A DNA stretch of 64,000 bases from Dehalococcoidia bacterium (lineage in GTDB: Bacteria > Chloroflexota > Dehalococcoidia > GIF9 > UBA5629), in contig PLME01000011.1 in assembly GCA_003142375.1 (NCBI GenBank), positions 81,475 to 145,474 on the forward strand, in the 5' to 3' direction. The notes beneath the pieces are model-generated. The model was not told the origin of the DNA. It saw nothing but the letters and a program-made list of their open reading frames with translations, and ran no database searches. Positions 9,278-48,033 of this stretch are shown piece by piece. Within the stretch, counting starts at the first letter, position 1, and every line of letters starts with the position of its first letter. A program made the translations under genes and the position numbers.

Positions 9278-9280
9278 ATC

Positions 9281-10527: not shown

Positions 10528-10666
10528 CTGCAAGTCCTATAAGCAATTACAAGGTGATTACTACCCTACCTATGGACCTCTTGGGTTGCGGGGCAGAGCT
10601 GGTTTTCGCCACCAAAATCGGCTCTGCCGCATCAGAAAAAGCGTTTCAAACAAGGAGGACCCAGAG

Positions 10667-15025: not shown

Positions 15026-15040
15026 ATCGATAATTCTTCT

Positions 15041-17591: not shown

Positions 17592-17593
17592 GA

Positions 17594-32015: not shown

Positions 32016-32065
32016 ATTTGTTTTCCGATGCCGTCCAGAAGATTTCCCCGCTATTATATAACAGG

Positions 32066-32776: not shown

Positions 32777-32780
32777 TATG

Positions 32781-33545: not shown

Positions 33546-33547
33546 TT

Positions 33548-34585: not shown

Positions 34586-35459
34586 GCAAACCTCCGGGTC
34601 TGAAACTAAGTATAGCGATAACCAGCAGGAATACGAATAGCTCGGCTATTCCGCCCAGGAATTGAAAACCAAAGCTCAAAGCAAGGCCGACCAGCAGGCC
34701 TCCCAAAATTGTACCTCTATAGCTGCCTATCCCACCGACTAACAGCACCAGCAGAGATAAGAATATTACATTTTCTCCCATGGCGGGCGTGACAGAGAAA
34801 AGCGGGGCGATGATGCCGCCTGCAATCCCGGCCAGGGCGCTTCCCAGAGCGAAACAAAACACCAGTATCCAGAGGGTGTTGATACCTGCCAGGGTTACGG
34901 CTTCAGGATCGTAACTTATGGCCCTTAATATTTTGCCCAGCGTGGTCCTGTACATAAGGAAATACAGCAAGAGGCAAATAATTATGGCCGCCAGTATGAC
35001 TATTACCCGCATGAGGGAAATCCTGACGTCGAAGATATCTATCATTTGAGGAAATGGAGTTTTCACACCCCTTTCTTCGGTTCCGAATAGCAGCAGGGTG
35101 CCTTGCTGCAATATCATCATCAAACCCACGGAGGCCATGGCGCTCAATAACAACCTGTAGGAAAATGTCGTGGTAACTGTGAACCTCTGCCTCACAACAT
35201 GAAAGATGCTCATGTAGCATATCGCTCCGACCAGGCCGAGGGTAAGACCGGCCAGGATAAGGGAGAGAGCGAAGTCCAGATGCATGATTTGGAATAATAG
35301 GAGCAGCATGTAGGCTCCCAGCATATAGAACTGGCCGTGGGCAAAATTCAGTATTTTAGTGCCCCTGATAATGATGTCCAGGCCGAGCACCATAAGTACG
35401 TAAACCGAGCCTAGAGATAGTGCGTTTAAAAGTAATTGAGCTAATAAACCCGGAGTCAC
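34566..35459 (-). CDS. branched-chain amino acid ABC transporter permease, LivH family
   Basis: It is a membrane protein with a LivH-like C-terminus ([11 protein letters not shown]). Confidence 0.8.
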   Translation of the reverse strand: MTPGLLAQLLLNALSLGSVYVLMVLGLDIIIRGTKILNFAHGQFYMLGAYMLLLLFQIMHLDFALSLILAGLTLGLVGAICYMSIFHVVRQRFTVTTTFSYRLLLSAMASVGLMMILQQGTLLLFGTEERGVKTPFPQMIDIFDVRISLMRVIVILAAIIICLLLYFLMYRTTLGKILRAISYDPEAVTLAGINTLWILVFCFALGSALAGIAGGIIAPLFSVTPAMGENVIFLSLLVLLVGGIGSYRGTILGGLLVGLALSFGFQFLGGIAELFVFLLVIAILSFRPGGLLGEAAD

Positions 35460-35573
35460 GTTATTCCCTTTACATCAAGAGGTAGAAGTCACTGCAATAT
35501 TACAGTGACTTCTACCGTTTTGGCTAATTATTCGTTTAGAAATAAGACTTTCTGTTCGGTGATTGTAGCAGAA

Positions 35574-36824
35574 CTACTTCCATACTCCGCCGAAAGCACT
35601 CTGGTTAGCCTTTAAGGCATCATCCGCTGAAACGGTCCCCAGGTATTCGTATTTACCACTCTTGAAAATACCGAAGTCCAATGACGCACAGGTGTCGCAG
35701 AACCTGTCGTTCTTGAAGTCCGGCCGCTTCACCAGCATGGCACTGCCATTAGGGCTTTGCCAGGATAGACCATTGGCTGAAAGATATGCACTGACCACTT
35801 CGGGATCAATGCTATCGGCCTTTTGAACAGCATTGACGAAGGCGTAAAAGGCGGGTATCCAGGTAAGGCTGACCGTCGACCATGAGCCGTATTTAGCCGT
35901 CCAGTCCTGTTTATATTGCGTAGCTAAGGCACTGGGGTTTGGAATCTCAGTCGATGGCAATATGGAGATGAGCCCCTCCATAGACTGCGGTGGGGCCACC
36001 GCCAGCACTTCGGTCAAGCTGGGGGGCATGGGGCTCACATGAGCACCTTTGAACCCTGCTTCATATAATGCTTTGAATTGCAGGCCGAACTGGGTTCCGG
36101 CAACCGCTCCCGGGTAGTCCATAATATCGGGTTTCAAGGCTGCAATCTTGGTAGCAAATGGAGCAAAATCCTGTGTGCTGCGCGGATAGTAGACGTTATC
36201 CAGCACGGTGATTCCGAGGGCCGTAGCGATTTTGGCGTTATCGCTCGCCAGGGCTTTGCCGGTTTCATCGTCCGGGGACAGGTTTACCATGGTTTTAGCA
36301 TTGGGGAAGGCAGACTTCAGCAATGGGAACAACGGTGCCAGATTGGTCCTCCATGTTGCAGTTCCAAATACGTATTTGTTGGCCGGATCGATTATTTTCG
36401 ACGAGGCGCCGCCGCAGAGGACCATCACTTTGGCAGGTTCTGTAACTGCGAGGCCGGCCACGATCGGTGCTGAACCGACCTGGCAGATAATGAATTTTAC
36501 TTTATCTTGATTGACCAATCGCTCTACTGCCGCCCGTCCACCGTCAGCAGTATATTTGTCATCGTATATAATCAGGTTAATATTGTATTTCTGGCCTTTG
36601 ACCGTCAGCCCACCCGCTGCATTGAACGCAGGGACGATCATTTCCAGAGCCTTTTTTGTATCCATGCCCAGGCTGTTGTCAAACGGAAGTGTGCATCCGA
36701 CATTGAGAGTTTTTACTTCCGTTGCCGCGGCTGGCTGTGTGGTCGCTGCCGGGCTGCAAGCTACCATGAACGAAGATGCCAGTATGCTCGCAACCATTGT
36801 CAGAATCAGGGCCGCCCTTTTCAT
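35574..36824 (-). CDS. ABC transporter substrate-binding protein, LivK family
   Basis: The signal peptide has a lipobox (FMVACS). A type I periplasmic-binding-protein fold is recognisable. It is the first gene of the minus-strand K-H-M-G-F cassette. Confidence 0.8.
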   Translation of the reverse strand: MKRAALILTMVASILASSFMVACSPAATTQPAAATEVKTLNVGCTLPFDNSLGMDTKKALEMIVPAFNAAGGLTVKGQKYNINLIIYDDKYTADGGRAAVERLVNQDKVKFIICQVGSAPIVAGLAVTEPAKVMVLCGGASSKIIDPANKYVFGTATWRTNLAPLFPLLKSAFPNAKTMVNLSPDDETGKALASDNAKIATALGITVLDNVYYPRSTQDFAPFATKIAALKPDIMDYPGAVAGTQFGLQFKALYEAGFKGAHVSPMPPSLTEVLAVAPPQSMEGLISILPSTEIPNPSALATQYKQDWTAKYGSWSTVSLTWIPAFYAFVNAVQKADSIDPEVVSAYLSANGLSWQSPNGSAMLVKRPDFKNDRFCDTCASLDFGIFKSGKYEYLGTVSADDALKANQSAFGGVWK

Positions 36825-37177
36825 AGATATACCTCCTCTTAATATAAATATAACTGTTAGTAATAAATTAGAAATATCAGTGTTGCCGGGACTTTTAGGT
36901 AGGATTCGTGACTCCAGAGTTACCGTGGGGATGCGGTAACCGGCCTAGAGTCACCTTCGGTAGATATACTTATTTGCGTGCATCTATACTGCGTAAAAGA
37001 TTAATTTAGTCTGAAGCTTTTTCAGTATATTATATTACCCCAGTATACTGCAACTATGTCAAGTTAACGCATCAAAGATATTAATGTTAAAATATCGACA
37101 ATACTAATACTGGCATTGCAAAAGCGGGGTTCTAATCAATCGTAAGATGGTCTCTATACATTTATGAGGAGGTGGCT

Positions 37178-37477
37178 ATGGCTATATATCTTTTACTTTC
37201 GACTCTGACTGGTGAAGGCAGAAAGGCAATAGAGGAATATCCCGAGAAATTAAAGGAATTAAATAAAGAAGTCGAATTCATGGGTATTAAAATCCTCGCC
37301 CAGTATGCGCTGCTCGGCCAATATGACTTCGTCAACATAGTAGAAGCCCCTTCAAATGAAAAGGCTGCTGAGCTGGCCATACACCTTTCAGCCGGCGGTT
37401 TGCAGAGCCTGACCCTGGCTGCGATTCCCCTGGACAAGCTCATTGAGACCCTTAAAAAGAAGCCCCAGGTATTTTAA
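37178..37477 (+). CDS. GYD domain protein
   Basis: ATG 37178 follows a GAGGAGG RBS. The GYD-family sequence is present (GQYDFVNIVEAPSNEKAAELAIHLSAGG). Confidence 0.65.
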   Translation: MAIYLLLSTLTGEGRKAIEEYPEKLKELNKEVEFMGIKILAQYALLGQYDFVNIVEAPSNEKAAELAIHLSAGGLQSLTLAAIPLDKLIETLKKKPQVF

Positions 37478-37557
37478 GTAGCGGTCAATTGAATTAATCA
37501 ATCAAACCCTATTATAATTGTGTCTCATGTTCGAGCGCACAATGAACTCAATGTAAT

Positions 37558-39387
37558 ATGAATAAAAGCCGCAAACTGCTTTCCGGAAATGAAGCCATCG
37601 CAATTGGCGCCTACCATGCCGGTGTACTCGTCGCAACAGCCTACCCCGGCACGCCGAGCACCGAGATACTGGAGAATCTCTCAAAATACAGGGACATCTA
37701 TGCCGAATGGTCTACCAATGAAAAGGTAGCCATGGAGGTCGGGCTGGGCGCCTCCTATGCCGGCGTCAGAACCCTGGTTTCCATGAAACACGTAGGTCTA
37801 AATGTCGCTGCCGACCCATTCATGGCAGCGGCTACTACCGGTATACATGGCGGCCTGGTTGTCATATCTGCTGACGATCCCGGAATACACAGCTCCCAGG
37901 GTGAGCAGGACAACCGTCATTTCGCCAAGCTGGCCCGGGTGCCGATGCTGGAGCCGTCCGACAGCCAGGAAGCTTATGATCTCATTGAAATTGCCTACGA
38001 TCTGAGCGAAAAATACGACACCCCCGTCCTTTTCAGAATAACTACCCGCGTGGCCCACTCCAAGTCAGTCGTTGAATTGAATGAAAAGCGTATTAGAAAG
38101 GAAAGAACCAAGCATTTCCATCACGATGTAGGCAAATATGTGATGCTGCCCACTAACGCACGCAACCGTGTGCCTAACATGCATAGGCGGATCGTCGAGC
38201 TGACAAAGTATGCTGAAAGCACGCCGGTCAACCAGATAATCGATGGAGACAGCAAAATAGGAATCATATCAAGCGGTGTAAGTTATGAGTATGCCAGGGA
38301 AGTGTTCCCCCAGGCGTCTTTCTTGAAACTGGGCATGACTTATCCGTTGCCGCCTGATCTGGTGCAGAAGTTCGTCGGCAAGGTTAAAAAACTCTTTGTG
38401 GTTGAGGAATTGGACCCCTTCCTGGAAGAGAACATCAAAATAATGGGGGTCCACGTTGAAGGCAAGAAGCACCTCCCGCGCTTCGGTGAACTGAACAAGT
38501 CCGCAGTTCATCACGCGGCTGTGCAGGCAGGTCTTTCAGATCTGGCCAATCCGGTCGACGAAGTGAACCTGGTGAAGAACCTGCCGGGCAGGCCTCCCCT
38601 CCTTTGCCCCGGCTGTCCCCATTCAGGTGCGTTTTTTATTTTAAGCACCATTGGTAAGCGGGCCAAAGTACTGGATGCCGAGGGAAGATCGGAGGAAGAG
38701 ACCGGGCTGATTATTACGGGTGATATCGGCTGTTATACCTTGGCAACCTACCCACCTTTGCGCGCCATGGATACCACGGCCTGCATGGGCGCCAGTATTG
38801 GACAGGCCATAGGCCTTGAAAAGGCCGGGGTAAGCAGCAAGATCGCTGCCGTCATAGGGGATTCGACCTTCATGCATTCCGGTATTACAGGAATTGTAGA
38901 TGCCGTTTATAACGATGCGAAAATAACAGTGATCATATTGGATAACGGGACTACCGCCATGACCGGTCATCAGGACCATCCGGGCTCCGGTATATCTGCG
39001 CAGGGCGTAGCCACCGAGAAGGTTGATATCGAGAAGCTGGTACTGGGAGCCGGCGTTAAAGACGTCCATGCGGTTAATGCATTTGACGTCAAGGCTGTCA
39101 GAGCTGCTATCAGGTCGGCTCTGGATAATCCGTCTTTGTCGGTGGTCATTGTAAGAGGTAAATGCGCCGTAATAAACAGAGTCCGAAAAAACCCCAGGCA
39201 GATAGATCTGGCTAAGTGCAACGATTGCGGTGTATGCGTAATGATAGGCTGCCAGGCCATTCAAAAACGCAACGACAAACTGTATATTGACGCTACCACC
39301 TGCATGGGAGACGAGTGCAGGATTTGCGAACAACTTTGCCCCAAACAGGCAATTGCACCGGTATCAGGGAAATCGGTGGGTGGATGA
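37558..39387 (+). CDS. iorA: indolepyruvate:ferredoxin oxidoreductase alpha subunit
   Basis: The N-terminus (LLSGNEAIAIGAYHAGVLVATAYPGTPSTEILE), TPP domain and C-terminal 2x[4Fe-4S] (CNDCGVCV, CRICEQLCP) are present. The size is 609 aa. Confidence 0.8.
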   Translation: MNKSRKLLSGNEAIAIGAYHAGVLVATAYPGTPSTEILENLSKYRDIYAEWSTNEKVAMEVGLGASYAGVRTLVSMKHVGLNVAADPFMAAATTGIHGGLVVISADDPGIHSSQGEQDNRHFAKLARVPMLEPSDSQEAYDLIEIAYDLSEKYDTPVLFRITTRVAHSKSVVELNEKRIRKERTKHFHHDVGKYVMLPTNARNRVPNMHRRIVELTKYAESTPVNQIIDGDSKIGIISSGVSYEYAREVFPQASFLKLGMTYPLPPDLVQKFVGKVKKLFVVEELDPFLEENIKIMGVHVEGKKHLPRFGELNKSAVHHAAVQAGLSDLANPVDEVNLVKNLPGRPPLLCPGCPHSGAFFILSTIGKRAKVLDAEGRSEEETGLIITGDIGCYTLATYPPLRAMDTTACMGASIGQAIGLEKAGVSSKIAAVIGDSTFMHSGITGIVDAVYNDAKITVIILDNGTTAMTGHQDHPGSGISAQGVATEKVDIEKLVLGAGVKDVHAVNAFDVKAVRAAIRSALDNPSLSVVIVRGKCAVINRVRKNPRQIDLAKCNDCGVCVMIGCQAIQKRNDKLYIDATTCMGDECRICEQLCPKQAIAPVSGKSVGG

Positions 39388-40000
39388 TTTGGATCGAAAG
39401 AAACAAGATATTTTAATGGTGGGCGTGGGCGGACAGGGCATCATCCTGGCCAGCGATATTTTAGGAGAGGCGGCGCTGGAAAAGGGCCTGGATGTTAAAA
39501 AGACAGATACTCTGGGCATGGCACAGCGCGGAGGAAGCGTCACCAGCCACCTGCGTATCAGCCAAAAGGTATGGTCTCCCTTAATCAGCCCTGCGGAAGC
39601 AGACATCCTGCTGGCCTTTGAGAAGCTCGAGGCAGCCAGGTGGGTAAACTACTTGAAACCGGACGGACTGGCCATTATTAACAATCTCGCCATTCCGCCC
39701 CTGTCTATTTCGCTTGGCTCGCAAAAATATCCGGGCGATCAGGAGATCATCGATTCATTCAAGCAAAGGACTAAGAAAGTACATCTTGTGGATGGTTCCG
39801 CACAAGTGGCCCTTCTTGGCGATACCAGGACCCTCAATATTTTTATGCTGGGATTTTTGTCGGTGTCCTTGCCATTGGATATCGATTTAGATGCCTGGAA
39901 AAGCTGTCTGCGAAAACAACTACACCCCAGGATACTCGATATAAATTTGCGCGCTTTCCAAAAGGGCCGCGAGGAGGCTTCAAGTGTCAATCTCGGATAA
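39380..40000 (+). CDS. iorB: indolepyruvate:ferredoxin oxidoreductase beta subunit
   Basis: The sequence ILMVGVGGQGIILASDILGEAAL is typical of IorB. The start is uncertain: GTG 39380 or ATG 39416. The ORF track start 39287 overlaps iorA. Confidence 0.75.
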   Translation: MDDLDRKKQDILMVGVGGQGIILASDILGEAALEKGLDVKKTDTLGMAQRGGSVTSHLRISQKVWSPLISPAEADILLAFEKLEAARWVNYLKPDGLAIINNLAIPPLSISLGSQKYPGDQEIIDSFKQRTKKVHLVDGSAQVALLGDTRTLNIFMLGFLSVSLPLDIDLDAWKSCLRKQLHPRILDINLRAFQKGREEASSVNLG

Positions 40001-41171
40001 CGTGCGCCGGAGGATGGCAGATGGGTCCTGGACCAGGCGCATGTTCGAGGAAGCAGCCGTGCTCAAGAAAAAGCATGGTGAACACAACGTTTTCGATCTC
40101 TCCCTGGGGAATCCGATTATTGAACCTCCGGCGGAATTTAAACATGCTTTAAAAAATTTCATGGAAAATCCTTTGCCGGGCAGGCACCGTTATATGGAAA
40201 ACGCCGGTTATCAGGACACGAGGGATGCTGTAGCCAAGCAGGTCTCGCTAGAAAACGGTCTTGACCTTGGAGGTCATGACATCGTCATGACTGTAGGAGC
40301 GGCCGGCGCTATCAACGTCATACTCAAAACCCCGCTTAACGCCGGCGAAGAGGTCATTGTATTCGCACCGTATTTTATGGAGTACGACAACTATATAGAT
40401 AACCACCAGGGCGTGACCAGGGTAGTTAAAACCAGCGATCAATTCTTGCCGGACCTTGGCGATTTAGAGAGAAATATCAATGAAAAGACCAAAGCTGTCA
40501 TCATCAACTCTCCCAACAATCCCACCGGCGTTGTCTACAGTGAAGACTTGTTAAGACAGATAGCAGATATCCTTGTCAGAAAGGAAAAACAATACGGCAC
40601 ATCTATTTACATGATCAGCGACGAAGCCTACAGCAGCCTGATTTACGATGGGCTTAAATATGTACCTGCCCTCAGAATATATCACCGCTGCATGATAGCA
40701 ACGTCCCACTCCAAAGACCTGGCTTTGCCTGGGGAACGTATAGGTTATATTGCAATTAACCCGGAAATAGGGAATAAGGGCGAAATAGTCAGCGGCCTCA
40801 TTTTCTGCAACCGTATACTGGGATTTGTAAATGCCCCCGCCCTCATGCAGAACCTTATCCGCCACCTGCAGCATGTAACCGTATCAATTCCGGAGTATCA
40901 ACAAAAGCGCGATTTCTTGTATAATAGCCTGACTGAAATGGGATACAAGCTTGTAAAACCCCAGGGCGCCTTCTATATGTTTCCGCGGACGCCCATCGAA
41001 AACGACATAGAGTTTGTACACGAATTGCAGAAATCTAATGTCCTGACCGTCCCCGGTCGTGGATTCGGCACCCCCGGCTATTTCCGCATCTCATATTGCG
41101 TCAGCCAGCCAACCCTCGAAGGCTCGCTCTTCGGCTTTAAAAAGGTTGCTGAGCAGTTTAAACTCTTTTAG
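39984..41171 (+). CDS. class I/II PLP-dependent aminotransferase (aromatic/aspartate aminotransferase-like)
   Basis: The GTG start follows a GAGGAGG RBS. A SHSKDLALPGERIGY Lys-PLP motif and the NPTG motif are present. Confidence 0.75.
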   Translation: MSISDNVRRRMADGSWTRRMFEEAAVLKKKHGEHNVFDLSLGNPIIEPPAEFKHALKNFMENPLPGRHRYMENAGYQDTRDAVAKQVSLENGLDLGGHDIVMTVGAAGAINVILKTPLNAGEEVIVFAPYFMEYDNYIDNHQGVTRVVKTSDQFLPDLGDLERNINEKTKAVIINSPNNPTGVVYSEDLLRQIADILVRKEKQYGTSIYMISDEAYSSLIYDGLKYVPALRIYHRCMIATSHSKDLALPGERIGYIAINPEIGNKGEIVSGLIFCNRILGFVNAPALMQNLIRHLQHVTVSIPEYQQKRDFLYNSLTEMGYKLVKPQGAFYMFPRTPIENDIEFVHELQKSNVLTVPGRGFGTPGYFRISYCVSQPTLEGSLFGFKKVAEQFKLF

Positions 41172-41216
41172 ATTGGGCGGTTTATTTCAACGGATCGCCC
41201 TCCTCATGTAATCTAC

Positions 41217-43109
41217 ATGAAAAACGCGCACACGATTCCACAATTGATACAGGAGAACTACCGTAAGTGGGGTAGCCAGACCGCCATGTGCGTTAAAAAG
41301 CGCGGCATCTGGCATAAGTTCAACTGGAACGAATATTTTAATACGGTAAAATTCTTTTCTCTGGGTTTAACCAGCATCGGGCTCCAGCGGGGCGATGTTG
41401 CATGCATCATCGGGGATAACGAGCCCGAATGGTTCTGGGGAGAATTTGCAGTGCAGGCCGCCGGCGGCATAGCGACTGGCTCTTTTGTCGATTCTATCCC
41501 CTCCGAGCTGAAATATATTGCCGGTCATTCCGGAGCAAGTTTTGCCATAGTAAATGACCAGGAGCAGGCCGACAAATTCCTGGAAATCTGCGCTGAGCTT
41601 CCAGCACTTAAGAAGGTTGTCTACTGGGATGCCAAAGGGCTGAATAACTACGACCACCCCATGCTTATAAGCTTCGAGAATGTAATAGAAGAGGGCAAAG
41701 CATTCGACCGTTCCAACCCCGGACGTTTTGAGGAAAATATTGCACAGGGCCAACCTGATGATACCGCTTTCATTTACTATACTTCCGGCACAACCGGGCT
41801 GCCCAAAGGTGCAATTCTGACTCATCGAGCTTTGATACAGACTGCGCGCGGCTTTACCAGCGTTTATCCCCTATTCAAAGATGATGACCTGGTCTCCAAT
41901 TTCCCGGCCGCCTGGGTGGGCGACAGTTATTTTGCGACTATCCCCCATATCCTGACCGGGGCTCGGCTGAATTTTGCCGAAGAACCTGAAACAATAGCCG
42001 AGGATACACGCGAAGTGGGACCTGATTTTGCCATCTACGGCCCGAGACAGTGGGAGAGCCTGGTCAGCGAAATTCAGGTCAAGATGACCGATGCGCACCC
42101 GCTCAAGAGATTTTTCTATCACATGCTGCTGCCCGTCGGCTATAAGATTGCCGACATGAACTTTCAAAATAAGAAACCGGATGTATTCTGGAGTACTCTT
42201 CATGCCATAGCGTATTACTTGCTGCTGCGGCCTTTAAAAGACAGGCTCGGCCTGAGTAAAGTGAGATTCGCAGTCACCGGCAGCTCCGTTTTAAGCCTCG
42301 ATACCTTTAGACTAATCCATGCTATCGGGATAGAGCTCAGGCAAACTTACGCCAGCACGGAAGCCGGATTCATCTCCTCTCACACCAAGGGAGAGATCGA
42401 TTTTCAGAGCGTAGGCCGTCCGGCGCTGGGCGTTGAAGTACGTATAGCCAGGGACGGAGAATTGCTGGTAAGGAGCGATTGCCTTTTCAAGGAATATTTA
42501 AATGAGCCGGAGAAAACGAGAGCAGTGAAGATCAAAGGCTGGTGCCACACCGGCGACGCCGTAAACATCAATGACAACGGCCACCTGATCTTTCTTGACC
42601 GTCTCGAGCATATGGGTACGCTGGTGACCGGCGCCAGGTATGCACCGCAATATATTGAGGGTAGATTGAGGTTCAGCCCTTACATAAAGGATGCCATGGT
42701 AATTGGCGGCAAGGATAAGTCCTTTGTGGCTGCCATGATCAACATCGACTTCGCCATGGTCGGCAAATGGGCCGAGCGGAAGGGCATCACATATACCACA
42801 TTTGTAGACCTTTCCCAAAAAGAGGAAGTAGCCAACCTGATAAAAAAAGACCTTTCCAGGGTAAACAGCTATTTGCCGGAATTATCCAGGGTAAAGAGAT
42901 ATATGCTTATGCATAAGGAATTCGATCCTGACGAAGCGGAGTTGACCAGGACGCGCAAGCTGCGTCGCGAGTTTATGGAAGTGAGGTATAACCCACTGAT
43001 CGTAGCTATCTATGCCGGGCAAAACAGTTTGAATGTCGAAGCTTCGGTAACCTACAGGGACGGCCGGAAGGGCGTGGTATCGACCGGCATCAGGATATGG
43101 GACCTGTAA
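41217..43109 (+). CDS. AMP-dependent synthetase/ligase, long (~630 aa) FAA1-type acyl-CoA ligase
   Basis: The AMP-binding motif IYYTSGTTGLPKGAILTH and a TGD motif are present. It has a C-terminal extension typical of COG1022-type ligases. Confidence 0.8.
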   Translation: MKNAHTIPQLIQENYRKWGSQTAMCVKKRGIWHKFNWNEYFNTVKFFSLGLTSIGLQRGDVACIIGDNEPEWFWGEFAVQAAGGIATGSFVDSIPSELKYIAGHSGASFAIVNDQEQADKFLEICAELPALKKVVYWDAKGLNNYDHPMLISFENVIEEGKAFDRSNPGRFEENIAQGQPDDTAFIYYTSGTTGLPKGAILTHRALIQTARGFTSVYPLFKDDDLVSNFPAAWVGDSYFATIPHILTGARLNFAEEPETIAEDTREVGPDFAIYGPRQWESLVSEIQVKMTDAHPLKRFFYHMLLPVGYKIADMNFQNKKPDVFWSTLHAIAYYLLLRPLKDRLGLSKVRFAVTGSSVLSLDTFRLIHAIGIELRQTYASTEAGFISSHTKGEIDFQSVGRPALGVEVRIARDGELLVRSDCLFKEYLNEPEKTRAVKIKGWCHTGDAVNINDNGHLIFLDRLEHMGTLVTGARYAPQYIEGRLRFSPYIKDAMVIGGKDKSFVAAMINIDFAMVGKWAERKGITYTTFVDLSQKEEVANLIKKDLSRVNSYLPELSRVKRYMLMHKEFDPDEAELTRTRKLRREFMEVRYNPLIVAIYAGQNSLNVEASVTYRDGRKGVVSTGIRIWDL

Positions 43110-43119
43110 GTACAAGAAA

Positions 43120-43992
43120 ATGGATATATTAATTCAAAATATCATTACGGGCGTTGCCACCGGCATGGTATATGCCCTGATTGCGCTGGGTTTTGCCCTT
43201 ATCTGGAAGTCCAGCCGTGTTGCTAACCTGGCGCTGGGACAATTAGTTCTGATATCCTCATGGTTTACTTACAGCATGCTCGTTCAATTCAAATTTCCGT
43301 TCTGGTTGGGAATGATATTGACCATCGCCTTTGCAATTTTGCTGGGCTGGCTGATTGAGAGACTGGCATTGCGACCACTGATAGGACAGCCGATACTTTC
43401 ACTTATTGCCATAACATTGGGGCTGGCCTATTTCCTGGAGGGTTTCACCGCGTTTATCTGGCCGCAGGGCCAGGGCAACCTGCCCAAAGTCTTCCCACAG
43501 ACTTCAATTCAGATTGGTCCAGCCATGATACAACAGGAATTGCTGTGGGCAGCCGTCATCTCCTTGATTCTATTCATTTTGCTATCGGTCTTTTTTAAAT
43601 ATCACAGGATGGGCATCGCCATGAGGGCCACAGCCGATGACCAGCTGGCTGTCCAGGCCTGCGCCGTTCCGGTAAACCGTGTATTTTCCATGTCGTGGAT
43701 TTTCGCCTGTGTGGTTGCAGCTATCGGCGGTGTCCTCATATCCAGTATCGCAGCTATCAACTATGGGTTAGTCGAAACGGGCTTCAAATCATTTTCGGTG
43801 GTTATCCTGGGAGGAATGGAGTCGTTCCTGGGCTGCATCGTAGCCGGCCCAATAATTGGGTTGTGTGAAACGTTCGGCGGCTCGCAATTCGGCTCAAGCA
43901 TTAAAGAAGTAATACCGTTCATAATCATCGTGATAGTAATTATGATTAAACCCTTTGGATTATTCGGCGAAGAGAGGATTGAGAGGATTTAA
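43120..43992 (+). CDS. branched-chain amino acid ABC transporter permease, LivH family
   Basis: It is a membrane protein with a LivH-like C-terminus (IMIKPFGLFG). Confidence 0.8.
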   Translation: MDILIQNIITGVATGMVYALIALGFALIWKSSRVANLALGQLVLISSWFTYSMLVQFKFPFWLGMILTIAFAILLGWLIERLALRPLIGQPILSLIAITLGLAYFLEGFTAFIWPQGQGNLPKVFPQTSIQIGPAMIQQELLWAAVISLILFILLSVFFKYHRMGIAMRATADDQLAVQACAVPVNRVFSMSWIFACVVAAIGGVLISSIAAINYGLVETGFKSFSVVILGGMESFLGCIVAGPIIGLCETFGGSQFGSSIKEVIPFIIIVIVIMIKPFGLFGEERIERI

Positions 43993-43994
43993 TT

Positions 43995-45050
43995 ATGAGT
44001 CTGCCCTGCGGTATACGTAATTTCTCATATCATACCGATATAGCCATTATCAGGACCAAAACCCAATGGGTATTGTTCATATTGTTCATGCTGGCGCTAT
44101 TTGTTTTGCCGTTATATTTGCCTAGATCCTGGTTTGACACTGTTAATTCTATCGGTATCCTGCTGATTGCGGTGGTCGGTTTAAACATCCTGATGGGATA
44201 CTGCGGCCAGCTATCACTGGGTCATGCCGGGTTTATGGCAGTTGGCGCATTTACTTCTGCTCTGCTGACCGGCAACCTGCATATGCCGTTCCTGCTGGCG
44301 CTTATTATTTCCGGTCTGTCTGCCGGGATAATCGGCCTTATATTCGGCATCCCTTCCTTGCGCGTGAAAGGGTTTTACCTGGCTATCGTAACAATTGCAG
44401 CCCAATTCATCATTATCTGGATACTTCAGAACTGGACGGATATTACTCACGGCTCCAACGGCCTTGATGTATTGCCGGCCTCAATATTCAATTGGCAATT
44501 CGACAGTGAGATCAAACAATTTTATTTAATATTTACAATTGCTGTAATCAGCATTCTGTTTGCCACGAATCTGGCTAGAAGCCGCATCGGCCGCGCCTTT
44601 ATTGCCATCAGAGATAACGACCTGGCGGCAGAGGTAATGGGAATCAATGTTTTCAGCTACAAGCTGCTGGCCTTCTTCCTGGGCTGTTTTCTGGCAGGCA
44701 TCGCCGGATCCCTGTACTCGCAATATAGAGGTCATATTACTTACGAAGACTTTACGTTTCAGCAATCGATATTGTATATAGGCATGCTCATCATAGGTGG
44801 CCTCGGAAGTTCACTGGGCCCCATACTTGGCACGGTTATCATAGAGACCCTGCAAAAGTCGTTGACTAACACAGTGGCGCCCTGGCTTGAGCATACCATG
44901 ACCTTCATGCCGACCGGCTTTTCTTCCGGCCTCAATCTAATGTTATTCGGCCTGGCTATCATCTTAATCCTGATTTTTGAACCTAGGGGGTTGGCCCATT
45001 TATGGGCATTGTTCAAATCTTCGTACAGGATGTGGCCGTTTTCTTACTAA
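43995..45050 (+). CDS. branched-chain amino acid ABC transporter permease, LivM family
   Basis: It is a membrane protein in the LivM position. Confidence 0.8.
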   Translation: MSLPCGIRNFSYHTDIAIIRTKTQWVLFILFMLALFVLPLYLPRSWFDTVNSIGILLIAVVGLNILMGYCGQLSLGHAGFMAVGAFTSALLTGNLHMPFLLALIISGLSAGIIGLIFGIPSLRVKGFYLAIVTIAAQFIIIWILQNWTDITHGSNGLDVLPASIFNWQFDSEIKQFYLIFTIAVISILFATNLARSRIGRAFIAIRDNDLAAEVMGINVFSYKLLAFFLGCFLAGIAGSLYSQYRGHITYEDFTFQQSILYIGMLIIGGLGSSLGPILGTVIIETLQKSLTNTVAPWLEHTMTFMPTGFSSGLNLMLFGLAIILILIFEPRGLAHLWALFKSSYRMWPFSY

Positions 45051-45118
45051 ATGCTTTAAATACAAATGTAAATTTGATATAATGCATCTTCTTTTACGAA
45101 AAAAGTGAGGAGGTTTAA

Positions 45119-46387
45119 ATGAAGAAGTCCCGTGTAGTCTTGGTAGTCACATTGGTTCTCTTACTTACATCCCTGGTTACCCTGATGTCGGCGTGCACCA
45201 CCCAGCCGTCGGCGGAAAAGAAAGCCTTTAAACTCGGCTTGAGCATTCCCCTGACGGGCCCTGCAGCCGAAAAAGGCGCCCCCATCGGCCATGGTCAACT
45301 CGATGCTTTTAAATACATCAATGATGAGTTGGGCGGAGTTGCCGGATATAAAATCGATCCTGACTGGTACGACACGAATTATGATACACAGAAAGCTACC
45401 GACATCGCCAAGAAACTTATGACGGACGGTTGCCTGTTCTTTACCGTGGTGGCTTCCAAGGATATGAGTGCATCACAGGTAATAGCCAATAGGGCCGGAT
45501 TCCCCGGCATGATATGCTTTAGCTCCCCATCAAACACCCATCCCCCGGCGCATATCTACGCTCAGCTTCCGGATTACGGCGATGATTGGACCGCATTCAC
45601 AAAGTACTATATGCAGAATATCTGGAAGGGTCCGGGCAAACCAAAGATGGCACTCGAGCTGCTGAACAACTCCACAGGTTCCGGAGTCGCTAATGCGGCC
45701 AGGGCCATGGCAGACCAGCTCGGTGTTGAGATTGTTGATACTGAACAACACTCAGCCACCACTATCTCTGAAACAGATGCCCTGAACAGGATCAAAGCTA
45801 AGAATCCCGACATACTCTTTATCTCGAGTACACCTGCTCCTACAGCCATTATTCTGAAGAATGCGCGTGACCTGAACATGATCCCCGGTATGACTGTGGC
45901 CTGTGCGCATGCAAGTTTTACCAAAGCCCTTATCGATGCCGCCGGCAAAACCGTGGCCGAAGGCGTTTATGGCGTCTATCCGACGGTTAACTTTGGGGAC
46001 AACGTGCCGGGCATGGCCAAGATGGTAGAGTACTGTAAGGCCCAGCATCCGGAATATATGGGAAACAATGACTATCTGGTAGGCTGGGCATCCAGCCTTG
46101 TCAATGCGGAAATCTTAAAACAGGCCATACAGAATTCCAATGTCGACGATCTTTTTAAAGGAGACGCTGCTTCATGGCAACTGGCGGAGACCAACGGCTT
46201 TATGAAGGTCAAAGGGTATGATGTAGGCGGATTGCAGGGTCCGGTGGATTTTTCCGGTACTCTTGATAAACGCGGTTCCAAATCCGTCAAAATATTCCAG
46301 ATCCAGAATGGCCTGATGGTCTCACTCTCCGGCTGGGTTGATGCGCCCAATATTCCCTATGAGACCTTCGATTGGTTCGGTAAGTAA
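45119..46387 (+). CDS. ABC transporter substrate-binding lipoprotein, LivK family
   Basis: The signal peptide has a lipobox (LMSACT). A type I PBP fold is recognisable. It lies after the permeases, which is an atypical order. Confidence 0.8.
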   Translation: MKKSRVVLVVTLVLLLTSLVTLMSACTTQPSAEKKAFKLGLSIPLTGPAAEKGAPIGHGQLDAFKYINDELGGVAGYKIDPDWYDTNYDTQKATDIAKKLMTDGCLFFTVVASKDMSASQVIANRAGFPGMICFSSPSNTHPPAHIYAQLPDYGDDWTAFTKYYMQNIWKGPGKPKMALELLNNSTGSGVANAARAMADQLGVEIVDTEQHSATTISETDALNRIKAKNPDILFISSTPAPTAIILKNARDLNMIPGMTVACAHASFTKALIDAAGKTVAEGVYGVYPTVNFGDNVPGMAKMVEYCKAQHPEYMGNNDYLVGWASSLVNAEILKQAIQNSNVDDLFKGDAASWQLAETNGFMKVKGYDVGGLQGPVDFSGTLDKRGSKSVKIFQIQNGLMVSLSGWVDAPNIPYETFDWFGK

Positions 46388-46404
46388 GTTTAAATCCAGG
46401 TAAT

Positions 46405-47196
46405 ATGTTAAAACTCAACAACATTGAGGTATCGTACCTCAATGTGGTGAAAGTATTGCACGGCATTTCGATCACCGTCGAGAACGGTGTCGTTGTTGCC
46501 CTTCTCGGAGCTAACGGGGCCGGAAAGACGACTACTCTAAAGGCGATTTCCGGCCTCCTCCGCATTGAAGAGGGCGAGATCAATGACGGCACCATTGAAT
46601 GGGACGGAATCCGGATAGATAAGAAAAATGCCGTCGACATCGGCAAACTGGGTATAGTGCAGGCGCTGGAGGGCAGGCGGGTCTTCGAGCACCTCAATGC
46701 CGAGGAAAATCTTCTGGTTGGGGCTTTCAGCCGCTCCAATTTAAAGGATGTTAAGGCTGACTTGAATATGGTCTATTCCTATTTCCCCCGCCTGGAAAGT
46801 CTGAAACACAACATTGCCGGTTATCTATCGGGCGGAGAGCAGCAGATGCTGGTTATCGGCCGGGCCATGATGGCTGCTCCCCGGTTGATGATGCTGGATG
46901 AACCATCGCTGGGCCTGGCGCCCATGGTAGTTGATCAGATATACGACATCATTAAGAGATTCAACATGGATAGAAAAACCGCCATTCTGCTGGTTGAACA
47001 AAACGTGAGGGTTGCCTTGAACACCGCACATTACGGATATGTGATGGAGAACGGGCGGGTAGTTTTGGACGGTTCAGCCGATTACCTGAAAGGCCGTGAA
47101 GACGTGAAGGAATTCTATATGGGTATTTCGGCCTCCGGAGAGAAAAAGAGCTATAAAGACGTCAAGCACTATAAACGGCGAAAAAGGTGGCTCTGA
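46405..47196 (+). CDS. ABC transporter ATP-binding protein, LivF family, with basic C-terminal tail
   Basis: GANGAGKTT, LSGGEQQMLVIG and MMLDEPSLGL are present. The C-terminal tail is KSYKDVKHYKRRKRWL. Confidence 0.85.
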   Translation: MLKLNNIEVSYLNVVKVLHGISITVENGVVVALLGANGAGKTTTLKAISGLLRIEEGEINDGTIEWDGIRIDKKNAVDIGKLGIVQALEGRRVFEHLNAEENLLVGAFSRSNLKDVKADLNMVYSYFPRLESLKHNIAGYLSGGEQQMLVIGRAMMAAPRLMMLDEPSLGLAPMVVDQIYDIIKRFNMDRKTAILLVEQNVRVALNTAHYGYVMENGRVVLDGSADYLKGREDVKEFYMGISASGEKKSYKDVKHYKRRKRWL

Positions 47197-47220
47197 CAGT
47201 TTAGAAGGCCGTCCGCTTCC

Positions 47221-48033
47221 CTATTTTTCTCCCAGGTATGCGGCAATCACTTCAGGATTCCCCGATATCTCCTCGGGGGTTCCCTCGGCTATTTTGCGTC
47301 CGAAATCCAGTACAATAATCCTGTCGGCTAGGTCCATAACCACTCCCATATCGTGCTCAATAAGCACGATAGATTCTACACCATCTCGCAACACGGGTGT
47401 AGCCGGATAAGATTCGCCCTGTCCCTCGAAAATATCATAAATAAAGCGGACGATATCTTCCTTCTCCTCAAGGTTCATACCGGCCATGGGCTCATCCAAA
47501 AGAAGGACCCTGGGCTCCAGGGCCAGCGCCCGGCCCAATTCCACGCGTTTCCTGAGTCCGTAAGGCAAAGAGCTGACTATACTTTTTCTGATATGCTCGA
47601 TCTCAAGGAAGTCAATGATGTCTTCCACAGTTTTACGATGCTCCAACTCTTCCTTTTGAGCAGGCCCGAAATATAAAAATGTACTTAGAATATTCTGCTT
47701 CATCAGGACATGCCGTGCCGCCATAATGTTATCCAGCGTGCTCAGCCCCGAATAAAGCTCAATATTCTGGAAAGTCCTGGCAATTCCCATCCTGGCAATT
47801 TTGTCGGAACGTACCCCGTTGATCTTCCTTTTATTAAATAGAATCTGACCTTTCTGGGGCTTATAGAAGCCGTTAATGCAATTTAACAGGCAGGTCTTTC
47901 CGGCTCCATTGGGCCCAATGATAGCCAGCACCTCGTTCTTTTTGATCTCCAGGTTAATATCGGTCAGAGCCCTTACGCCCCCGAACCACAGTGAAAGGTC
48001 CTTGATACTTAAAGCTGTTTCTTTCCCATTCAT
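47221..48033 (-). CDS. ABC transporter ATP-binding protein, LivG family (inverted relative to its cassette)
   Basis: GPNGAGKTC and LLLDEPMAGM are present. An insertion GQGESYPATPVLRDGVE precedes the H-loop. It is convergent with livF. Confidence 0.8.
   Translation of the reverse strand: MNGKETALSIKDLSLWFGGVRALTDINLEIKKNEVLAIIGPNGAGKTCLLNCINGFYKPQKGQILFNKRKINGVRSDKIARMGIARTFQNIELYSGLSTLDNIMAARHVLMKQNILSTFLYFGPAQKEELEHRKTVEDIIDFLEIEHIRKSIVSSLPYGLRKRVELGRALALEPRVLLLDEPMAGMNLEEKEDIVRFIYDIFEGQGESYPATPVLRDGVESIVLIEHDMGVVMDLADRIIVLDFGRKIAEGTPEEISGNPEVIAAYLGEK

What the first reader, a model, noticed from the sequence alone, without database searches (positions are those of the whole stretch)
37172..43109. 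GYD–iorA–iorB–aminotransferase–acyl-CoA ligase block: candidate arylacetate to aromatic amino acid (or reverse) pathway
An indolepyruvate:ferredoxin oxidoreductase (alpha 609 aa with a ferredoxin tail, beta about 200 aa) is followed by a class I aminotransferase whose GTG start overlaps the iorB stop by 17 nt. A CoA ligase and a Liv-type transporter follow immediately, and an ADP-forming acyl-CoA synthetase alpha subunit lies 6 kb away (49293-50738). By established knowledge, aminotransferase plus IOR plus ACD is the archaeal-type aromatic amino-acid fermentation route to arylacetates plus ATP. In the reverse direction, IOR performs reductive carboxylation of arylacetyl-CoA (phenylacetate or indoleacetate to Phe or Trp) in some anaerobes. 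The ligase-IOR-aminotransferase order fits that salvage direction equally well, so the direction is my inference.
Basis: partly seen in the sequence, partly recalled or inferred. Interest (0 to 1): 0.55.

Follow-up and report, generated by a model that had tools for sequence, protein, structure and literature searches.

The report
Dehalococcoidia IOR–aminotransferase operon beside acid importer
An uncultured sediment Dehalococcoidia bacterium carries a tightly coupled indolepyruvate:ferredoxin oxidoreductase plus aminotransferase unit next to an acid-importer/CoA-ligase module, an ordinary member of a known pathway type that links aromatic amino acids and arylacetyl-CoA, with the direction still unproven.

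Summary
The gene block is real and sits at the stated coordinates, apart from minor start-codon corrections. The order is GYD, iorA, iorB, a class-I aminotransferase (its GTG start overlaps the iorB stop by 17 nt), a 630-aa AMP-forming ligase, and a Liv-type ABC importer. The host is an uncultured Dehalococcoidia bacterium; the closest genome is UBA1162.

Comparative loci show two modules.
- **iorA–iorB–AT** is a translationally coupled unit, conserved down to about 56% AT identity.
- **ligase630–LivHM–SBP–LivF, with a convergent LivG**, is an independently conserved unit that also occurs without IOR.

The ligase is an ACSL/FadD11-like enzyme, not a PaaK-type phenylacetate-CoA ligase. The "ACD alpha" 6 kb away lies in another transcription unit, has no beta subunit in the window, and is missing at this position in the closest genome. 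GYD adjacency is loose.

Hints of an aromatic theme come from relatives: a PaaI-like thioesterase and DAHP synthase next to the AT, and a PaaK-superfamily ligase inside one ligase–Liv operon. The AT also lacks the acidic-substrate Lys109 of Thermus AspAT.

An importer plus an AMP-forming ligase, with no ATP-yielding enzyme, mildly favours assimilation (acid to amino acid). Direction and substrates remain inference.

Verdict: a new member of a known kind, of modest interest.

In passing, an apparently undescribed structured leader RNA lies in the divergent intergenic region.

The parts
37178..37477 (+). GYD-domain protein, 99 aa, function unknown. It is a loosely linked upstream neighbour of iorA.
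   Evidence: PF08734, E = 1.5e-21. ATG start 6 nt after GGAGG. It is more conserved than IOR: 90% identity where IorA is 75%. At 75-77% identity it is unlinked (L116) or 2.5 kb from iorAB-AT (L118).
37558..39387 (+). iorA, the indolepyruvate:ferredoxin oxidoreductase alpha subunit (609 aa). It carries the TPP domains and a C-terminal 2x[4Fe-4S] ferredoxin-like tail.
   Evidence: TIGR03336 scores 695 bits against a cut-off of 651. POR_N and TPP_enzyme_C are present. The Cys motifs are C554xxCxxCxxxxC565 and C582xxxxCxxCxxxCP.
39389..40000 (+). iorB, the IOR beta subunit, about 203 aa. An alternative start is GTG 39380, which overlaps the iorA stop.
   Evidence: PF01558, E = 3e-36. NF005322 scores 240.7 bits against a cut-off of 237, with the profile match beginning at residue 37 of the long ORF. 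Sequence read. Relatives show 1-4 nt iorA/iorB overlaps.
39984..41171 (+). Class-I (I-gamma) PLP aminotransferase of the PRK06836 family, 395 aa, translationally coupled to iorB.
   Evidence: Aminotran_1_2, E = 3e-53; NF005305 scores 534 bits against a cut-off of 376. GTG start after AGGAGG with a 17-nt overlap. The overlap of 14-17 nt is conserved in L001, L002, L004, L087, L117 and L118. The PLP-Lys motif SHSK is invariant. Thermus AspAT Lys109 is replaced by Ala.
41217..43109 (+). 630-aa AMP-forming acyl-CoA ligase, ACSL/FadD11-like. It is the first gene of the ligase-Liv importer module.
   Evidence: AMP-binding and AMP-binding_C_3 domains. The best NCBIfam hit is FadD11, 237 bits against a cut-off of 950. 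The adenylation motifs YTSGTTGLPKG, YASTE and GWCHTGD are present. It stays with LivHM-SBP-LivF when IOR/AT are absent.
43120..47196 (+). Liv-type (HAAT family) ABC importer: LivH 43120-43992, LivM 43995-45050, lipoprotein SBP 45119-46387, LivF-type ATPase 46405-47196.
   Evidence: Domains BPD_transp_2 x2, Peripla_BP_6 and ABC_tran, with LivH/LivM/LivF-like NCBIfam hits below cut-offs. The SBP has a lipobox signal peptide. The best PDB relatives of the SBP are weak (E = 3e-11).
47221..48033 (-). LivG-type ATPase, convergent with the importer operon. It is probably the importer's second ATPase.
   Evidence: ABC_tran and BCA_ABC_TP_C domains; LivG NF008449 scores 241 bits. The convergent position is conserved in L001, L002, L007 and L086-L089.

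Best explanation
The locus joins two conserved modules in an uncultured Dehalococcoidia bacterium.

**Module 1: iorA-iorB-aminotransferase.** This is a translationally coupled pair of reversible enzymes.
- The aminotransferase interconverts an (aromatic) amino acid and its 2-oxoacid.
- IOR interconverts arylpyruvate + CoA + oxidised ferredoxin with arylacetyl-CoA + CO2 + reduced ferredoxin.

**Module 2: ligase and importer.** This is a 630-aa AMP-forming acyl-CoA ligase, a lipoprotein-SBP Liv-type ABC importer, and a convergent LivG. It takes up a carboxylic acid and traps it as a CoA thioester.

**Most likely operation in this lineage: assimilation.**
1. An exogenous acid, an arylacetate or similar fermentation product, is imported.
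2. The ligase activates it to the acyl-CoA.
3. IOR reductively carboxylates the acyl-CoA to the 2-oxoacid.
4. The aminotransferase converts the 2-oxoacid to the amino acid.

**What is shown:** gene identities, translational coupling, synteny, and the absence of an ATP-yielding partner.
**What is inferred:** aromatic specificity, the ligase and SBP substrate, co-transcription, and direction.

My confidence that IOR and AT work as a pair on aromatic or related 2-oxoacids is about 0.75. The overall confidence of 0.4 applies to the full assimilatory pathway that includes the ligase and importer.
For: - IOR family membership is above curated cut-offs for both subunits.
- The iorB/AT overlap of 14-17 nt, and the iorA/iorB overlap or abutment, are conserved from 90% down to about 56% AT identity.
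- Intergenic gaps are short: 45 nt between AT and ligase, 10 nt between ligase and LivH. No terminator-like hairpin lies in the gaps.
- AT is adjacent to ligase630-Liv in several lineages: the window clade, L015 (58% AT), and L007, which has no IOR.
- SBP-dependent ABC systems are importers, and all three SBPs in the window carry lipoprotein signals.
- AMP-forming ligases favour acyl-CoA synthesis. IOR next to an AMP-forming ligase has been argued to be biosynthetic in Bacteroides and methanogens (PMC13285125).
- No Pta/Ack and no complete ACD is found in the locus or among the window ORFs of at least 90 aa that were scanned.
- Aromatic hints come from relatives. The AT clusters with DAHP synthase in 6 loci and with a PaaI-like thioesterase in 6 loci; four thioesterases were scanned, with best hit TIGR02286 at 79-89 bits.
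- A PaaK-superfamily ligase sits inside the ligase-Liv operon of L089.
- The AT lacks Lys109, which Thermus AspAT uses for acidic substrates.
Against: - The ligase is ACSL/FadD11-like ("long-chain acyl-CoA synthetase"), not a PaaK-type arylacetate ligase.
- In relatives at 72-74% ligase identity, ligase-Liv lies without IOR/AT nearby (L088, L089) or about 6 kb downstream of iorAB-AT (L004), next to MaoC-type hydratases and an SDR. That suggests beta-oxidation of the imported acid.
- The window holds three Liv-ABC plus ligase modules, so adjacency may reflect their abundance.
- L004 suggests the AT-ligase juxtaposition arose by loss of about 6 kb of intervening genes.
- A PaaI-like thioesterase directly after the AT in relatives fits release of free arylacetate, which is the oxidative direction.
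- AT orthologs in other Dehalococcoidia lie near catabolic 2-oxoacid dehydrogenase complexes.
- The PaaI and PaaK hits are below family cut-offs.
- No assay, transcript or SBP-ligand data exist.
Confidence: 0.4

Rival explanations
1. Oxidative (fermentative) direction. Imported or peptide-derived aromatic amino acids are transaminated. IOR oxidises the arylpyruvates to arylacetyl-CoA and yields reduced ferredoxin. The thioester is then cleaved by a thioesterase, a CoA-transferase or an ACD encoded elsewhere. The ligase-importer module is not part of this flux, or the Liv-type importer brings in the amino acids.
For: - A PaaI-like thioesterase lies immediately downstream of the AT in L004, L009, L010 and L015.
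- Two acetyl-CoA hydrolase/transferase genes lie upstream of the block in L004.
- An ACD-alpha-like gene lies 6 kb away and is conserved in L001, L002 and L087.
- The best PDB relative of SBP_R is a Leu/Ile/Val-binding protein, though weakly (E = 3e-11).
- AT orthologs in aerobic relatives lie next to E1/E2/LipB 2-oxoacid dehydrogenase genes, which is catabolic logic.
- AT plus OFOR oxidation is the common pattern in amino-acid-fermenting anaerobes.
Against: - The window itself has no thioesterase; the AT-ligase gap is 45 nt.
- No Pta/Ack is present. The ACD alpha has no beta subunit in the window, scores below the family cut-off, sits in a different transcription unit, and is missing in the closest genome, L006.
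- PaaI-type thioesterases coexist with the activating ligase PaaK in classical paa clusters (own knowledge), so they do not fix direction.
- The thioesterase-DAHP synthase-AT trio also occurs without IOR (L016, L026).
Confidence: 0.3
2. Mosaic with no pathway link. iorAB-AT and ligase630-Liv are functionally independent neighbours, kept together by descent and brought side by side by a deletion. The ligase-importer takes up fatty or other aliphatic acids for beta-oxidation. IOR-AT serves as a general reversible 2-oxoacid/amino-acid node.
For: - Ligase630-Liv occurs without IOR/AT in L088 and L089, and 6 kb from it in L004, each time near a MaoC-hydratase pair and an SDR.
- The ligase family is annotated as long-chain acyl-CoA synthetase and is more conserved (72-95%) than IOR/AT.
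- The window has three ligase plus Liv modules.
- iorAB-AT occurs without ligase-Liv in L009, L010 and L011.
Against: - AT-ligase630 adjacency recurs in separate lineages: the window clade, L015, and L007.
- Gaps are short and on the same strand, with no terminator-like site.
- A PaaK-superfamily ligase is embedded in one ligase-Liv operon.
Confidence: 0.25

Closest known systems
IOR-dependent aryl-acid assimilation in methanogens (Methanococcus maripaludis; own knowledge of Porat et al. 2004) and the Bacteroides IOR with its adjacent AMP-forming arylacetate-CoA ligase (PMC13285125)
   Same: A two-subunit IOR lies next to an AMP-forming CoA ligase. The proposed flow is arylacetate to arylacetyl-CoA to arylpyruvate to amino acid. 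No ATP-yielding enzyme is in the cluster.
   Different: Here the ligase is a 630-aa ACSL/FadD11-like enzyme tied to an ABC importer, not a roughly 430-aa PaaK-type ligase. Here the aminotransferase is translationally coupled to iorB. No biochemical evidence exists for this lineage.
Archaeal aromatic amino-acid fermentation: aromatic aminotransferase + IOR + ADP-forming acyl-CoA synthetase in Pyrococcus and Thermococcus (own knowledge)
   Same: The aminotransferase and IOR enzyme pair is the same. An ACD-alpha-like gene exists in the wider neighbourhood.
   Different: The ACD alpha is in another operon on the other strand and scores below the family cut-off. No beta subunit is in the window, and the gene is absent in the closest genome. 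An AMP-forming ligase, not an ACD, is the adjacent thioester enzyme.
Clostridium scatologenes HpdDEFG-HpdJ-HpdK oxidative tyrosine pathway (PMC13285125), and OFOR loci with aminotransferase plus Ptb/Buk in gut acetogens (bioRxiv 10.64898/2026.01.29.702580)
   Same: An aminotransferase is followed by ferredoxin-dependent oxidative decarboxylation of arylpyruvates to arylacetyl-CoA. OFOR genes cluster with aminotransferases.
   Different: Those use four-subunit VOR-like OFORs, with phosphotransacylase and kinase for ATP. This locus has a two-subunit IOR and no phosphotransacylase or kinase.
Bacterial paa (phenylacetate) clusters with PaaK ligase and PaaI thioesterase (own knowledge)
   Same: Relatives of this locus carry a PaaI-like hotdog thioesterase next to the AT. 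One relative carries a PaaK-superfamily ligase in the ligase-Liv operon.
   Different: All these hits are below family cut-offs. Neither gene is present in the window. No ring-attacking paa genes are present.
Liv-type (HAAT) ABC importers for aromatic and aliphatic acids, for example Rhodopseudomonas palustris benzoate-derivative binding proteins (PDB 4EY3/4EYG/4EYK; ligand identity from own knowledge)
   Same: A Peripla_BP_6 SBP with LivHMGF-type components lies next to CoA ligases. SBP_L (35574-36824) has 4EY3 as its best PDB hit.
   Different: The similarity is weak (E = 3e-10). SBP_R of the finding is closest to a Leu/Ile/Val-binding protein (E = 3e-11). No specificity can be read from sequence.

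Membership tests
Indolepyruvate:ferredoxin oxidoreductase (IOR; TIGR03336 / IorB NF005322) | Full-length alpha subunit that fuses the POR_N and TPP-binding domains and scores above the curated equivalog cut-off | tested here: met
   TIGR03336 scores 695.2 bits against a cut-off of 650.9, with the match covering residues 5-599 of 609. PF01855 and PF02775 are present.
Indolepyruvate:ferredoxin oxidoreductase (IOR; TIGR03336 / IorB NF005322) | C-terminal ferredoxin-like domain with two 4-Cys cluster motifs in the alpha subunit | tested here: met
   C554-N-D-C-G-V-C-V-M-I-G-C565 and C582-MGDE-C-RI-C-EQL-C594-P.
Indolepyruvate:ferredoxin oxidoreductase (IOR; TIGR03336 / IorB NF005322) | Separate beta (gamma-like, PF01558) subunit of about 200 aa encoded directly downstream | tested here: met
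   NF005322 scores 240.7 bits against a cut-off of 237. PF01558 E = 3e-36. The start abuts or overlaps the iorA stop.
Indolepyruvate:ferredoxin oxidoreductase (IOR; TIGR03336 / IorB NF005322) | Preference for aromatic 2-oxoacids (indolepyruvate, phenylpyruvate, 4-hydroxyphenylpyruvate) | not testable with these tools
   The only PDB sequence relative of IorA is a partial match to another OFOR alpha subunit (1YD7), so no IOR structure is available as a template. A recent study found no sequence motif that predicts indolepyruvate oxidation. Only indirect context supports it: PaaI-like, DAHP synthase and PaaK-like neighbours in relatives.
Class-I (I-gamma) PLP aminotransferase, PRK06836 group | Aminotran_1_2 fold with the PLP-binding Lys and cofactor or carboxylate-binding residues, scoring above the family cut-off | tested here: met
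   NF005305 scores 534.5 bits against a cut-off of 376. SHSK244, N179, D213, Y216, R252 and R368 are invariant in alignment A1. The closest structure is 3ELE (E. rectale, function unassigned; E = 1.5e-78).
Thermus-type aspartate aminotransferase | Lys109 (TVGGKQ), which binds the distal carboxylate of Asp or Glu (role of the residue from own knowledge) | tested here: not met
   The residue aligned to Lys109 in the query is Ala (TVGAAG), within the segment G105-A106-A107-G108, which is invariant in the family alignment. The AspAT NCBIfam models score far below their cut-offs.
Phenylacetate-CoA ligase (PaaK; TIGR02155, AMP-binding_C_2) | A roughly 430-aa adenylating enzyme with the PF14535 C-terminal domain that matches PaaK models | tested here: not met
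   Ligase630 has PF23562 (AMP-binding_C_3). PaaK models are not among its 25 best NCBIfam hits, and it gives no blastp hit (E <= 1e-3) to the PaaK-superfamily ligase of L089.
ADP-forming acyl-CoA synthetase (ACD) | Alpha subunit matching TIGR02717 above its cut-off | tested here: inconclusive
   The 481-aa ORF at 49293-50738 (minus strand) has CoA_binding_2 and Succ_CoA_lig domains, but TIGR02717 scores 346 bits against a cut-off of 567.
ADP-forming acyl-CoA synthetase (ACD) | ATP-grasp beta subunit or domain encoded with or near the alpha subunit | tested here: not met
   No ATP-grasp family was reported by the Pfam scans of the non-overlapping window ORFs of at least 90 aa (a few larger ones, such as the 137-aa ORF at 10114-10527, included). 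Smaller ORFs were not scanned. The rest of the genome was not available.
Arylacetate salvage module (importer/ligase -> IOR -> aminotransferase) | Genes co-transcribed and ligase active on arylacetates | not testable with these tools
   Only gap lengths (45 nt and 10 nt), shared strand, and the absence of terminator-like sites in the gaps are available. No expression or enzyme data exist.

The most novel reading that the evidence does not exclude
The whole 30-48 kb region may be an integrated organic-acid assimilation island of energy-limited sediment Dehalococcoidia. In this reading, two importer plus AMP-ligase modules flank an IOR-aminotransferase pair that runs as an arylpyruvate synthase. 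One module is an ACSL-type ligase acting with a Liv importer on arylacetates. The other is controlled by a previously undescribed structured leader RNA that may sense the imported acid or its CoA ester. Aromatic amino acids would then be made from fermentation-product arylacetates, CO2 and reduced ferredoxin instead of through the shikimate pathway.
Probability: 0.15. Interest if true: 0.55.

Novelty: new member of a known kind. Interest (0 to 1): 0.3.

Why it matters
If the assimilatory reading holds, abundant but uncultured subsurface Dehalococcoidia would save the high cost of the shikimate pathway by scavenging arylacetates. That would link them to the fermentation products of their neighbours and add a ferredoxin-dependent CO2-fixing step to their carbon budget. 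If the oxidative reading holds, the locus simply marks aromatic amino-acid fermentation. Either way, the enzymes and the pathway logic are already known from archaea, Bacteroides and clostridia. The value here is mainly in annotation:
- the conserved functional unit is iorAB-AT;
- the ligase belongs to the importer;
- the nearby ACD alpha should not be counted as part of the pathway.

The leader RNA found beside the block may be the more original lead.

Tried and rejected
1. **ACD alpha as the ATP-conserving partner: rejected.** It is on a different strand and in a different operon, scores below the family cut-off, has no beta subunit in the window, and is absent in L006.
2. **Ligase630 as a PaaK-type phenylacetate-CoA ligase: rejected**.
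3. **GYD as an obligate IOR accessory: rejected.** L116 has no IOR nearby. In L118 it is 2.5 kb away, with a rubrerythrin gene in between. No GYD was detected in the remaining loci, including the IOR-bearing L009-L015.
4. **T-box or riboswitch of a known class upstream of GYD/iorA that would reveal the regulating metabolite: none found**.
5. **Promoter and terminator scans:** site counts are at the level of shuffled sequence, so they are uninformative beyond the absence of terminator-like hairpins in the gaps.
6. **SBP specificity from solved structures:** only weak matches (E >= 3e-11), no inference possible.
7. **IOR specificity from a solved structure:** no IOR structure was matched.
8. **General role of the AT family from gene neighbourhood:** the answer is mixed. 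About 70 loci have no IOR, 12-15 lie near E1/E2/LipB, and 6 lie next to DAHP synthase.
9. **Literature on Dehalococcoidia IOR and on the GYD domain:** nothing specific.
10. **Expression platform of the leader RNA:** only the main hairpin is supported. No terminator or clear SD-sequestering helix was found.

Full report
**Observation**

- **GYD.** PF08734. The more likely start is ATG 37178, 6 nt after GGAGG, which gives 99 aa.
- **IorA (37558-39387, 609 aa).** TIGR03336 scores 695 bits against a cut-off of 651. There are two C-terminal 4-Cys motifs.
- **IorB.** NF005322 scores 240.7 bits against 237. The real start is GTG 39380 or TTG 39389, giving about 203-206 aa.
- **Aminotransferase (39984-41171).** Class I. 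The GTG start follows AGGAGG and overlaps the iorB stop by exactly 17 nt.
- **Ligase (41217-43109, 630 aa).** An AMP-binding enzyme, 45 nt after the AT and 10 nt before LivH.
- **Importer.** LivH, LivM, a lipoprotein SBP and a LivF-type ATPase follow, up to 47196.
- **LivG-type ATPase.** Encoded convergently on the minus strand (47221-48033).
- **ACD alpha.** The 481-aa ORF at 49293-50738 is on the minus strand. It has CoA_binding_2 and Succ_CoA_lig domains, but TIGR02717 scores 346 bits against a 567-bit cut-off.

**Origin**

The closest AT homologs are named Dehalococcoidia or Chloroflexota MAG proteins. The best species-level genome is Dehalococcoidia bacterium UBA1162, with 90% AT identity (L006).

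**Synteny: what belongs together**

I fetched loci around AT homologs, ligase homologs and GYD homologs. I mapped the window proteins onto them with tblastn and blastx.

- **The full block.** The order (GYD, iorA, iorB, AT, ligase630, LivH, LivM, SBP, LivF, convergent LivG) recurs in about 11 distinct variants.
- **iorA-iorB-AT is the tight unit.**
  - The iorB/AT overlap is 14-17 nt in L001, L002, L004, L087, L117 and L118.
  - iorA/iorB overlap by 1-4 nt or abut.
  - The trio persists down to about 56% AT identity (L009-L011, L015, L031, L118). In L013 the IOR is on the other strand, 3 kb away.
- **Ligase630-LivHM-SBP-LivF with the convergent LivG is a second unit.**
  - In L004 it lies 6 kb downstream of the AT.
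  - In L088 and L089 it has no IOR/AT nearby and sits near a MaoC-hydratase pair and an SDR.
  - In L007 it follows an AT with no IOR.
  - The ligase is more conserved than IOR or AT: 72-74% identity where the AT is 64-65%.
  - Sources annotate its homologs as long-chain acyl-CoA synthetase.
- **The juxtaposition in the window.** Comparison with L004 suggests it arose by loss of intervening genes: thioesterase, DAHP synthase, hydratases and SDR.
- **AT orthologs at 51-57% identity.** In about 70 other genomes they have no IOR within 10 kb. Of these, 12-15 lie near E1alpha/E1beta/E2/LipB genes of a 2-oxoacid dehydrogenase complex.
- **GYD.**
  - It is very conserved: 90% identity where IorA is 75%.
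  - At 75-77% identity it is unlinked (L116) or separated from iorA by 2.5 kb (L118).
  - It was not detected in the other loci, including the IOR-bearing L009-L015.
  - I treat it as a loosely linked neighbour of unknown function. No literature on its function was found.
- **ACD alpha.**
  - It sits in a UbiA-ACDalpha-TGT-LivG string on the opposite strand.
  - It is missing between TGT and UbiA in the closest genome, L006.
  - No ATP-grasp partner appears among the ORFs of at least 90 aa scanned across the window.

**Substrate clues**

- **Ligase.** It is not PaaK-like. It has AMP-binding_C_3. Its best NCBIfam hit is FadD11 at 237 of 950 bits, and it has no similarity to a PaaK-superfamily ligase. 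Its adenylation motifs are intact.
- **Aminotransferase.** It belongs to the functionally unassigned PRK06836 group. The nearest structure is 3ELE from E. rectale. It keeps all PLP and alpha-carboxylate residues. The Lys109 that Thermus AspAT uses for acidic side chains is replaced by Ala (TVGGKQ becomes TVGAAG; the role of that residue is from my own knowledge). This argues against an Asp-specific enzyme but does not prove aromatic specificity.
- **Neighbours in relatives.**
  - The AT sits next to a DAHP synthase with an FXD regulatory domain in L004, L009, L013, L016, L026 and L031.
  - It sits next to a hotdog thioesterase in L004, L009, L010, L013, L015 and L026.
  - For the three members scanned (L004, L013, L015), the best family hit is PaaI at 79-89 bits, below the 119-bit cut-off.
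- **PaaK-like ligase.** L089 carries a PaaK-superfamily ligase between LivF and the convergent LivG. It has PF14535, and its best hits are PaaK models far below their cut-offs.
- **SBPs.** Their solved-structure relatives are too distant to read specificity.
- **IOR.** No solved IOR structure was matched. A recent study found no motif that predicts indolepyruvate use.

Together these give a consistent but indirect aromatic theme.

**Direction**

The IOR and AT reactions are reversible.

Points favouring assimilation:
- The adjacent thioester enzyme is AMP-forming.
- The transporter is an SBP-dependent importer with lipoprotein SBPs.
- There is no phosphotransacylase/kinase pair and no complete ACD.
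- The published argument that IOR with an AMP-forming ligase indicates biosynthesis, as in methanogens and probably Bacteroides, while Pta/Ack or ACD indicates degradation (PMC13285125).
- The AT's link to DAHP synthase in relatives.

Points favouring oxidation:
- The PaaI-like thioesterase after the AT in relatives.
- CoA-transferase-like genes upstream in L004.
- The nearby ACD alpha.
- The catabolic context of AT orthologs in aerobic Dehalococcoidia.

Points favouring no link at all:
- The independent life of the ligase-Liv module.
- Three Liv-ABC plus ligase modules in this one window: 5281-12259, 30459-36824 and 41217-48033.

My estimates are 0.4 for assimilation, 0.3 for oxidation, and 0.25 for an unlinked mosaic.

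**Regulation**

No known RNA family lies upstream. Promoter and terminator scans are at chance level. No terminator-like hairpin falls in the intergenic gaps of the block.

**Comparison and novelty**

The enzyme logic is known from three settings:
- archaeal fermentation (AT + IOR + ACD);
- methanogen and Bacteroides aryl-acid assimilation (ligase + IOR);
- clostridial OFOR pathways.

This locus is a new, uncharacterised member from Dehalococcoidia. It has two particular traits: an AT translationally coupled to iorB, and an ACSL-type rather than PaaK-type ligase tied to an ABC importer. I rate it a new member of a known kind, with interest about 0.3.

**Noticed beside the finding**

The divergent intergenic region (36825-37177) contains a roughly 90-nt block that is far more conserved than its surroundings.

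- **Distribution.** A metagenome pattern scan recovered 26 more loci, giving 25 distinct variants.
- **Position.** The element always lies 140-265 nt upstream, in sense, of the first gene of a transporter operon that ends in the ligase518 ortholog. That operon is either a Liv-type ABC system or a TRAP DctPQM system. The element stays with the transporter when GYD-iorA is displaced by 2.6-3.5 kb (L095, L115).
- **Structure.** A two-helix hairpin is supported by covariation:
  - 98.9% of 450 cells are paired.
  - Six pairs show double changes.
  - 0 of 500 shuffles reach the observed value.
  - Slid controls give 33-57% paired.
- **Strand.** Many G-U pairs would be A-C mismatches on the other strand, so the RNA lies on the window's minus strand.
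- **Flanks.**
  - An invariant single-stranded AUGCACGCNAAYAANUAYAUCUACCGA precedes the hairpin; that invariance was imposed by the scan pattern.
  - A conserved TATAAT box lies upstream.
  - A second GGUAUAUCUA copy lies at the ribosome-binding site.
- **Status.** It has no Rfam match. It is a candidate cis-regulatory leader RNA for an acid-uptake/activation operon. Its ligand and expression platform are unresolved.

Noticed in passing
window 36890-37000, minus strand (leader of the SBP_L...lig518 operon, 30459-36824): Candidate new structured cis-regulatory RNA. It consists of a conserved single-stranded AUGCACGCNAAYAANUAYAUCUACCGA segment followed by a 10-bp and an 8-bp hairpin with strong covariation: 98.9% paired over 25 variants, 6 compensatory pairs, and G-U pairs that fix the strand. 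It always lies 140-265 nt upstream of a Liv-type SBP or a TRAP DctP gene in operons that end in the same ligase. It has no Rfam 15 match. A conserved TATAAT lies upstream and a second GGUAUAUCUA copy lies at the RBS..
   Followed up: partly
window 5281-12259 (+), 30459-36824 (-), 41217-48033 (+/-): The 64-kb window holds three separate Liv-type ABC importer plus AMP-forming CoA-ligase modules. Their ligases are of 557, 518 and 630 aa. The first module is preceded by two TetR regulators (3573-4911) and contains an SCP2-domain protein (10114-10527). In relatives the middle module is replaced by a TRAP DctPQM transporter followed by the same ligase.
   Followed up: partly
window 13166-18478, minus strand: A second 2-oxoacid:ferredoxin oxidoreductase is present. 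Its subunits are PorC/D-like (294 aa), PorA-like (405 aa) and PorB-like (309 aa; NF008819 scores 420 bits against a cut-off of 405). NuoE-like and NuoF/HydB-like genes follow. This arrangement suggests an NAD(H)-linked or bifurcating OFOR complex.
   Followed up: partly
window 14063-14065, minus strand (between ORFs 14063-15025 and 13166-14038): The NuoF-like gene is interrupted by an in-frame TAG within the conserved LEGKVG*PRAKY segment. The two ORFs match NuoF profile positions 10-181 and 194-410. This could be a pseudogene, a sequencing error or recoding.
   Followed up: partly
window 47221-48033 (-) relative to 41217-47196 (+): The importer's LivG-type ATPase is encoded convergently, at the end of a UbiA-ACDalpha-TGT-LivG string, instead of inside the operon. 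A ligase occupies the first position of the operon. This odd arrangement is conserved in L001, L002, L007 and L086-L089.
   Followed up: partly
window 49293-50738 (-); L006 18096-20198: An archaeal-type split ACD alpha subunit overlaps the end of the UbiA gene by 13 nt and has no beta subunit in the window. The gene is absent between TGT and UbiA in the closest genome, UBA1162.
   Followed up: yes
L004 11195-13207; L009 5290-7448; L013 8419-11188; L026 1192-4020; L016 and L031: In related Dehalococcoidia the same aminotransferase forms a recurring trio with a PaaI-like hotdog thioesterase and a DAHP synthase carrying an FXD regulatory domain. The trio occurs with or without IOR next to it.
   Followed up: partly
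L089 14010-15293: A 427-aa PaaK-superfamily ligase (AMP-binding plus AMP-binding_C_2) is inserted between LivF and the convergent LivG of a ligase630-Liv operon that has no IOR/AT nearby.
   Followed up: partly
L040, L056 and about 12 other loci (e.g. L056 3826-8217 upstream of the AT at 10001): AT orthologs at 51-57% identity in other, mostly GC-rich Dehalococcoidia lie within a few kb of E1alpha/E1beta/E2/LipB genes of a 2-oxoacid dehydrogenase complex. This may be an aerobic counterpart of the AT plus IOR pairing.
   Followed up: partly
window 37178-37477: The GYD protein is unusually conserved for its neighbourhood: 90% identity where IorA and the AT are 75%. It has no cysteines and no known function.
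   Followed up: partly
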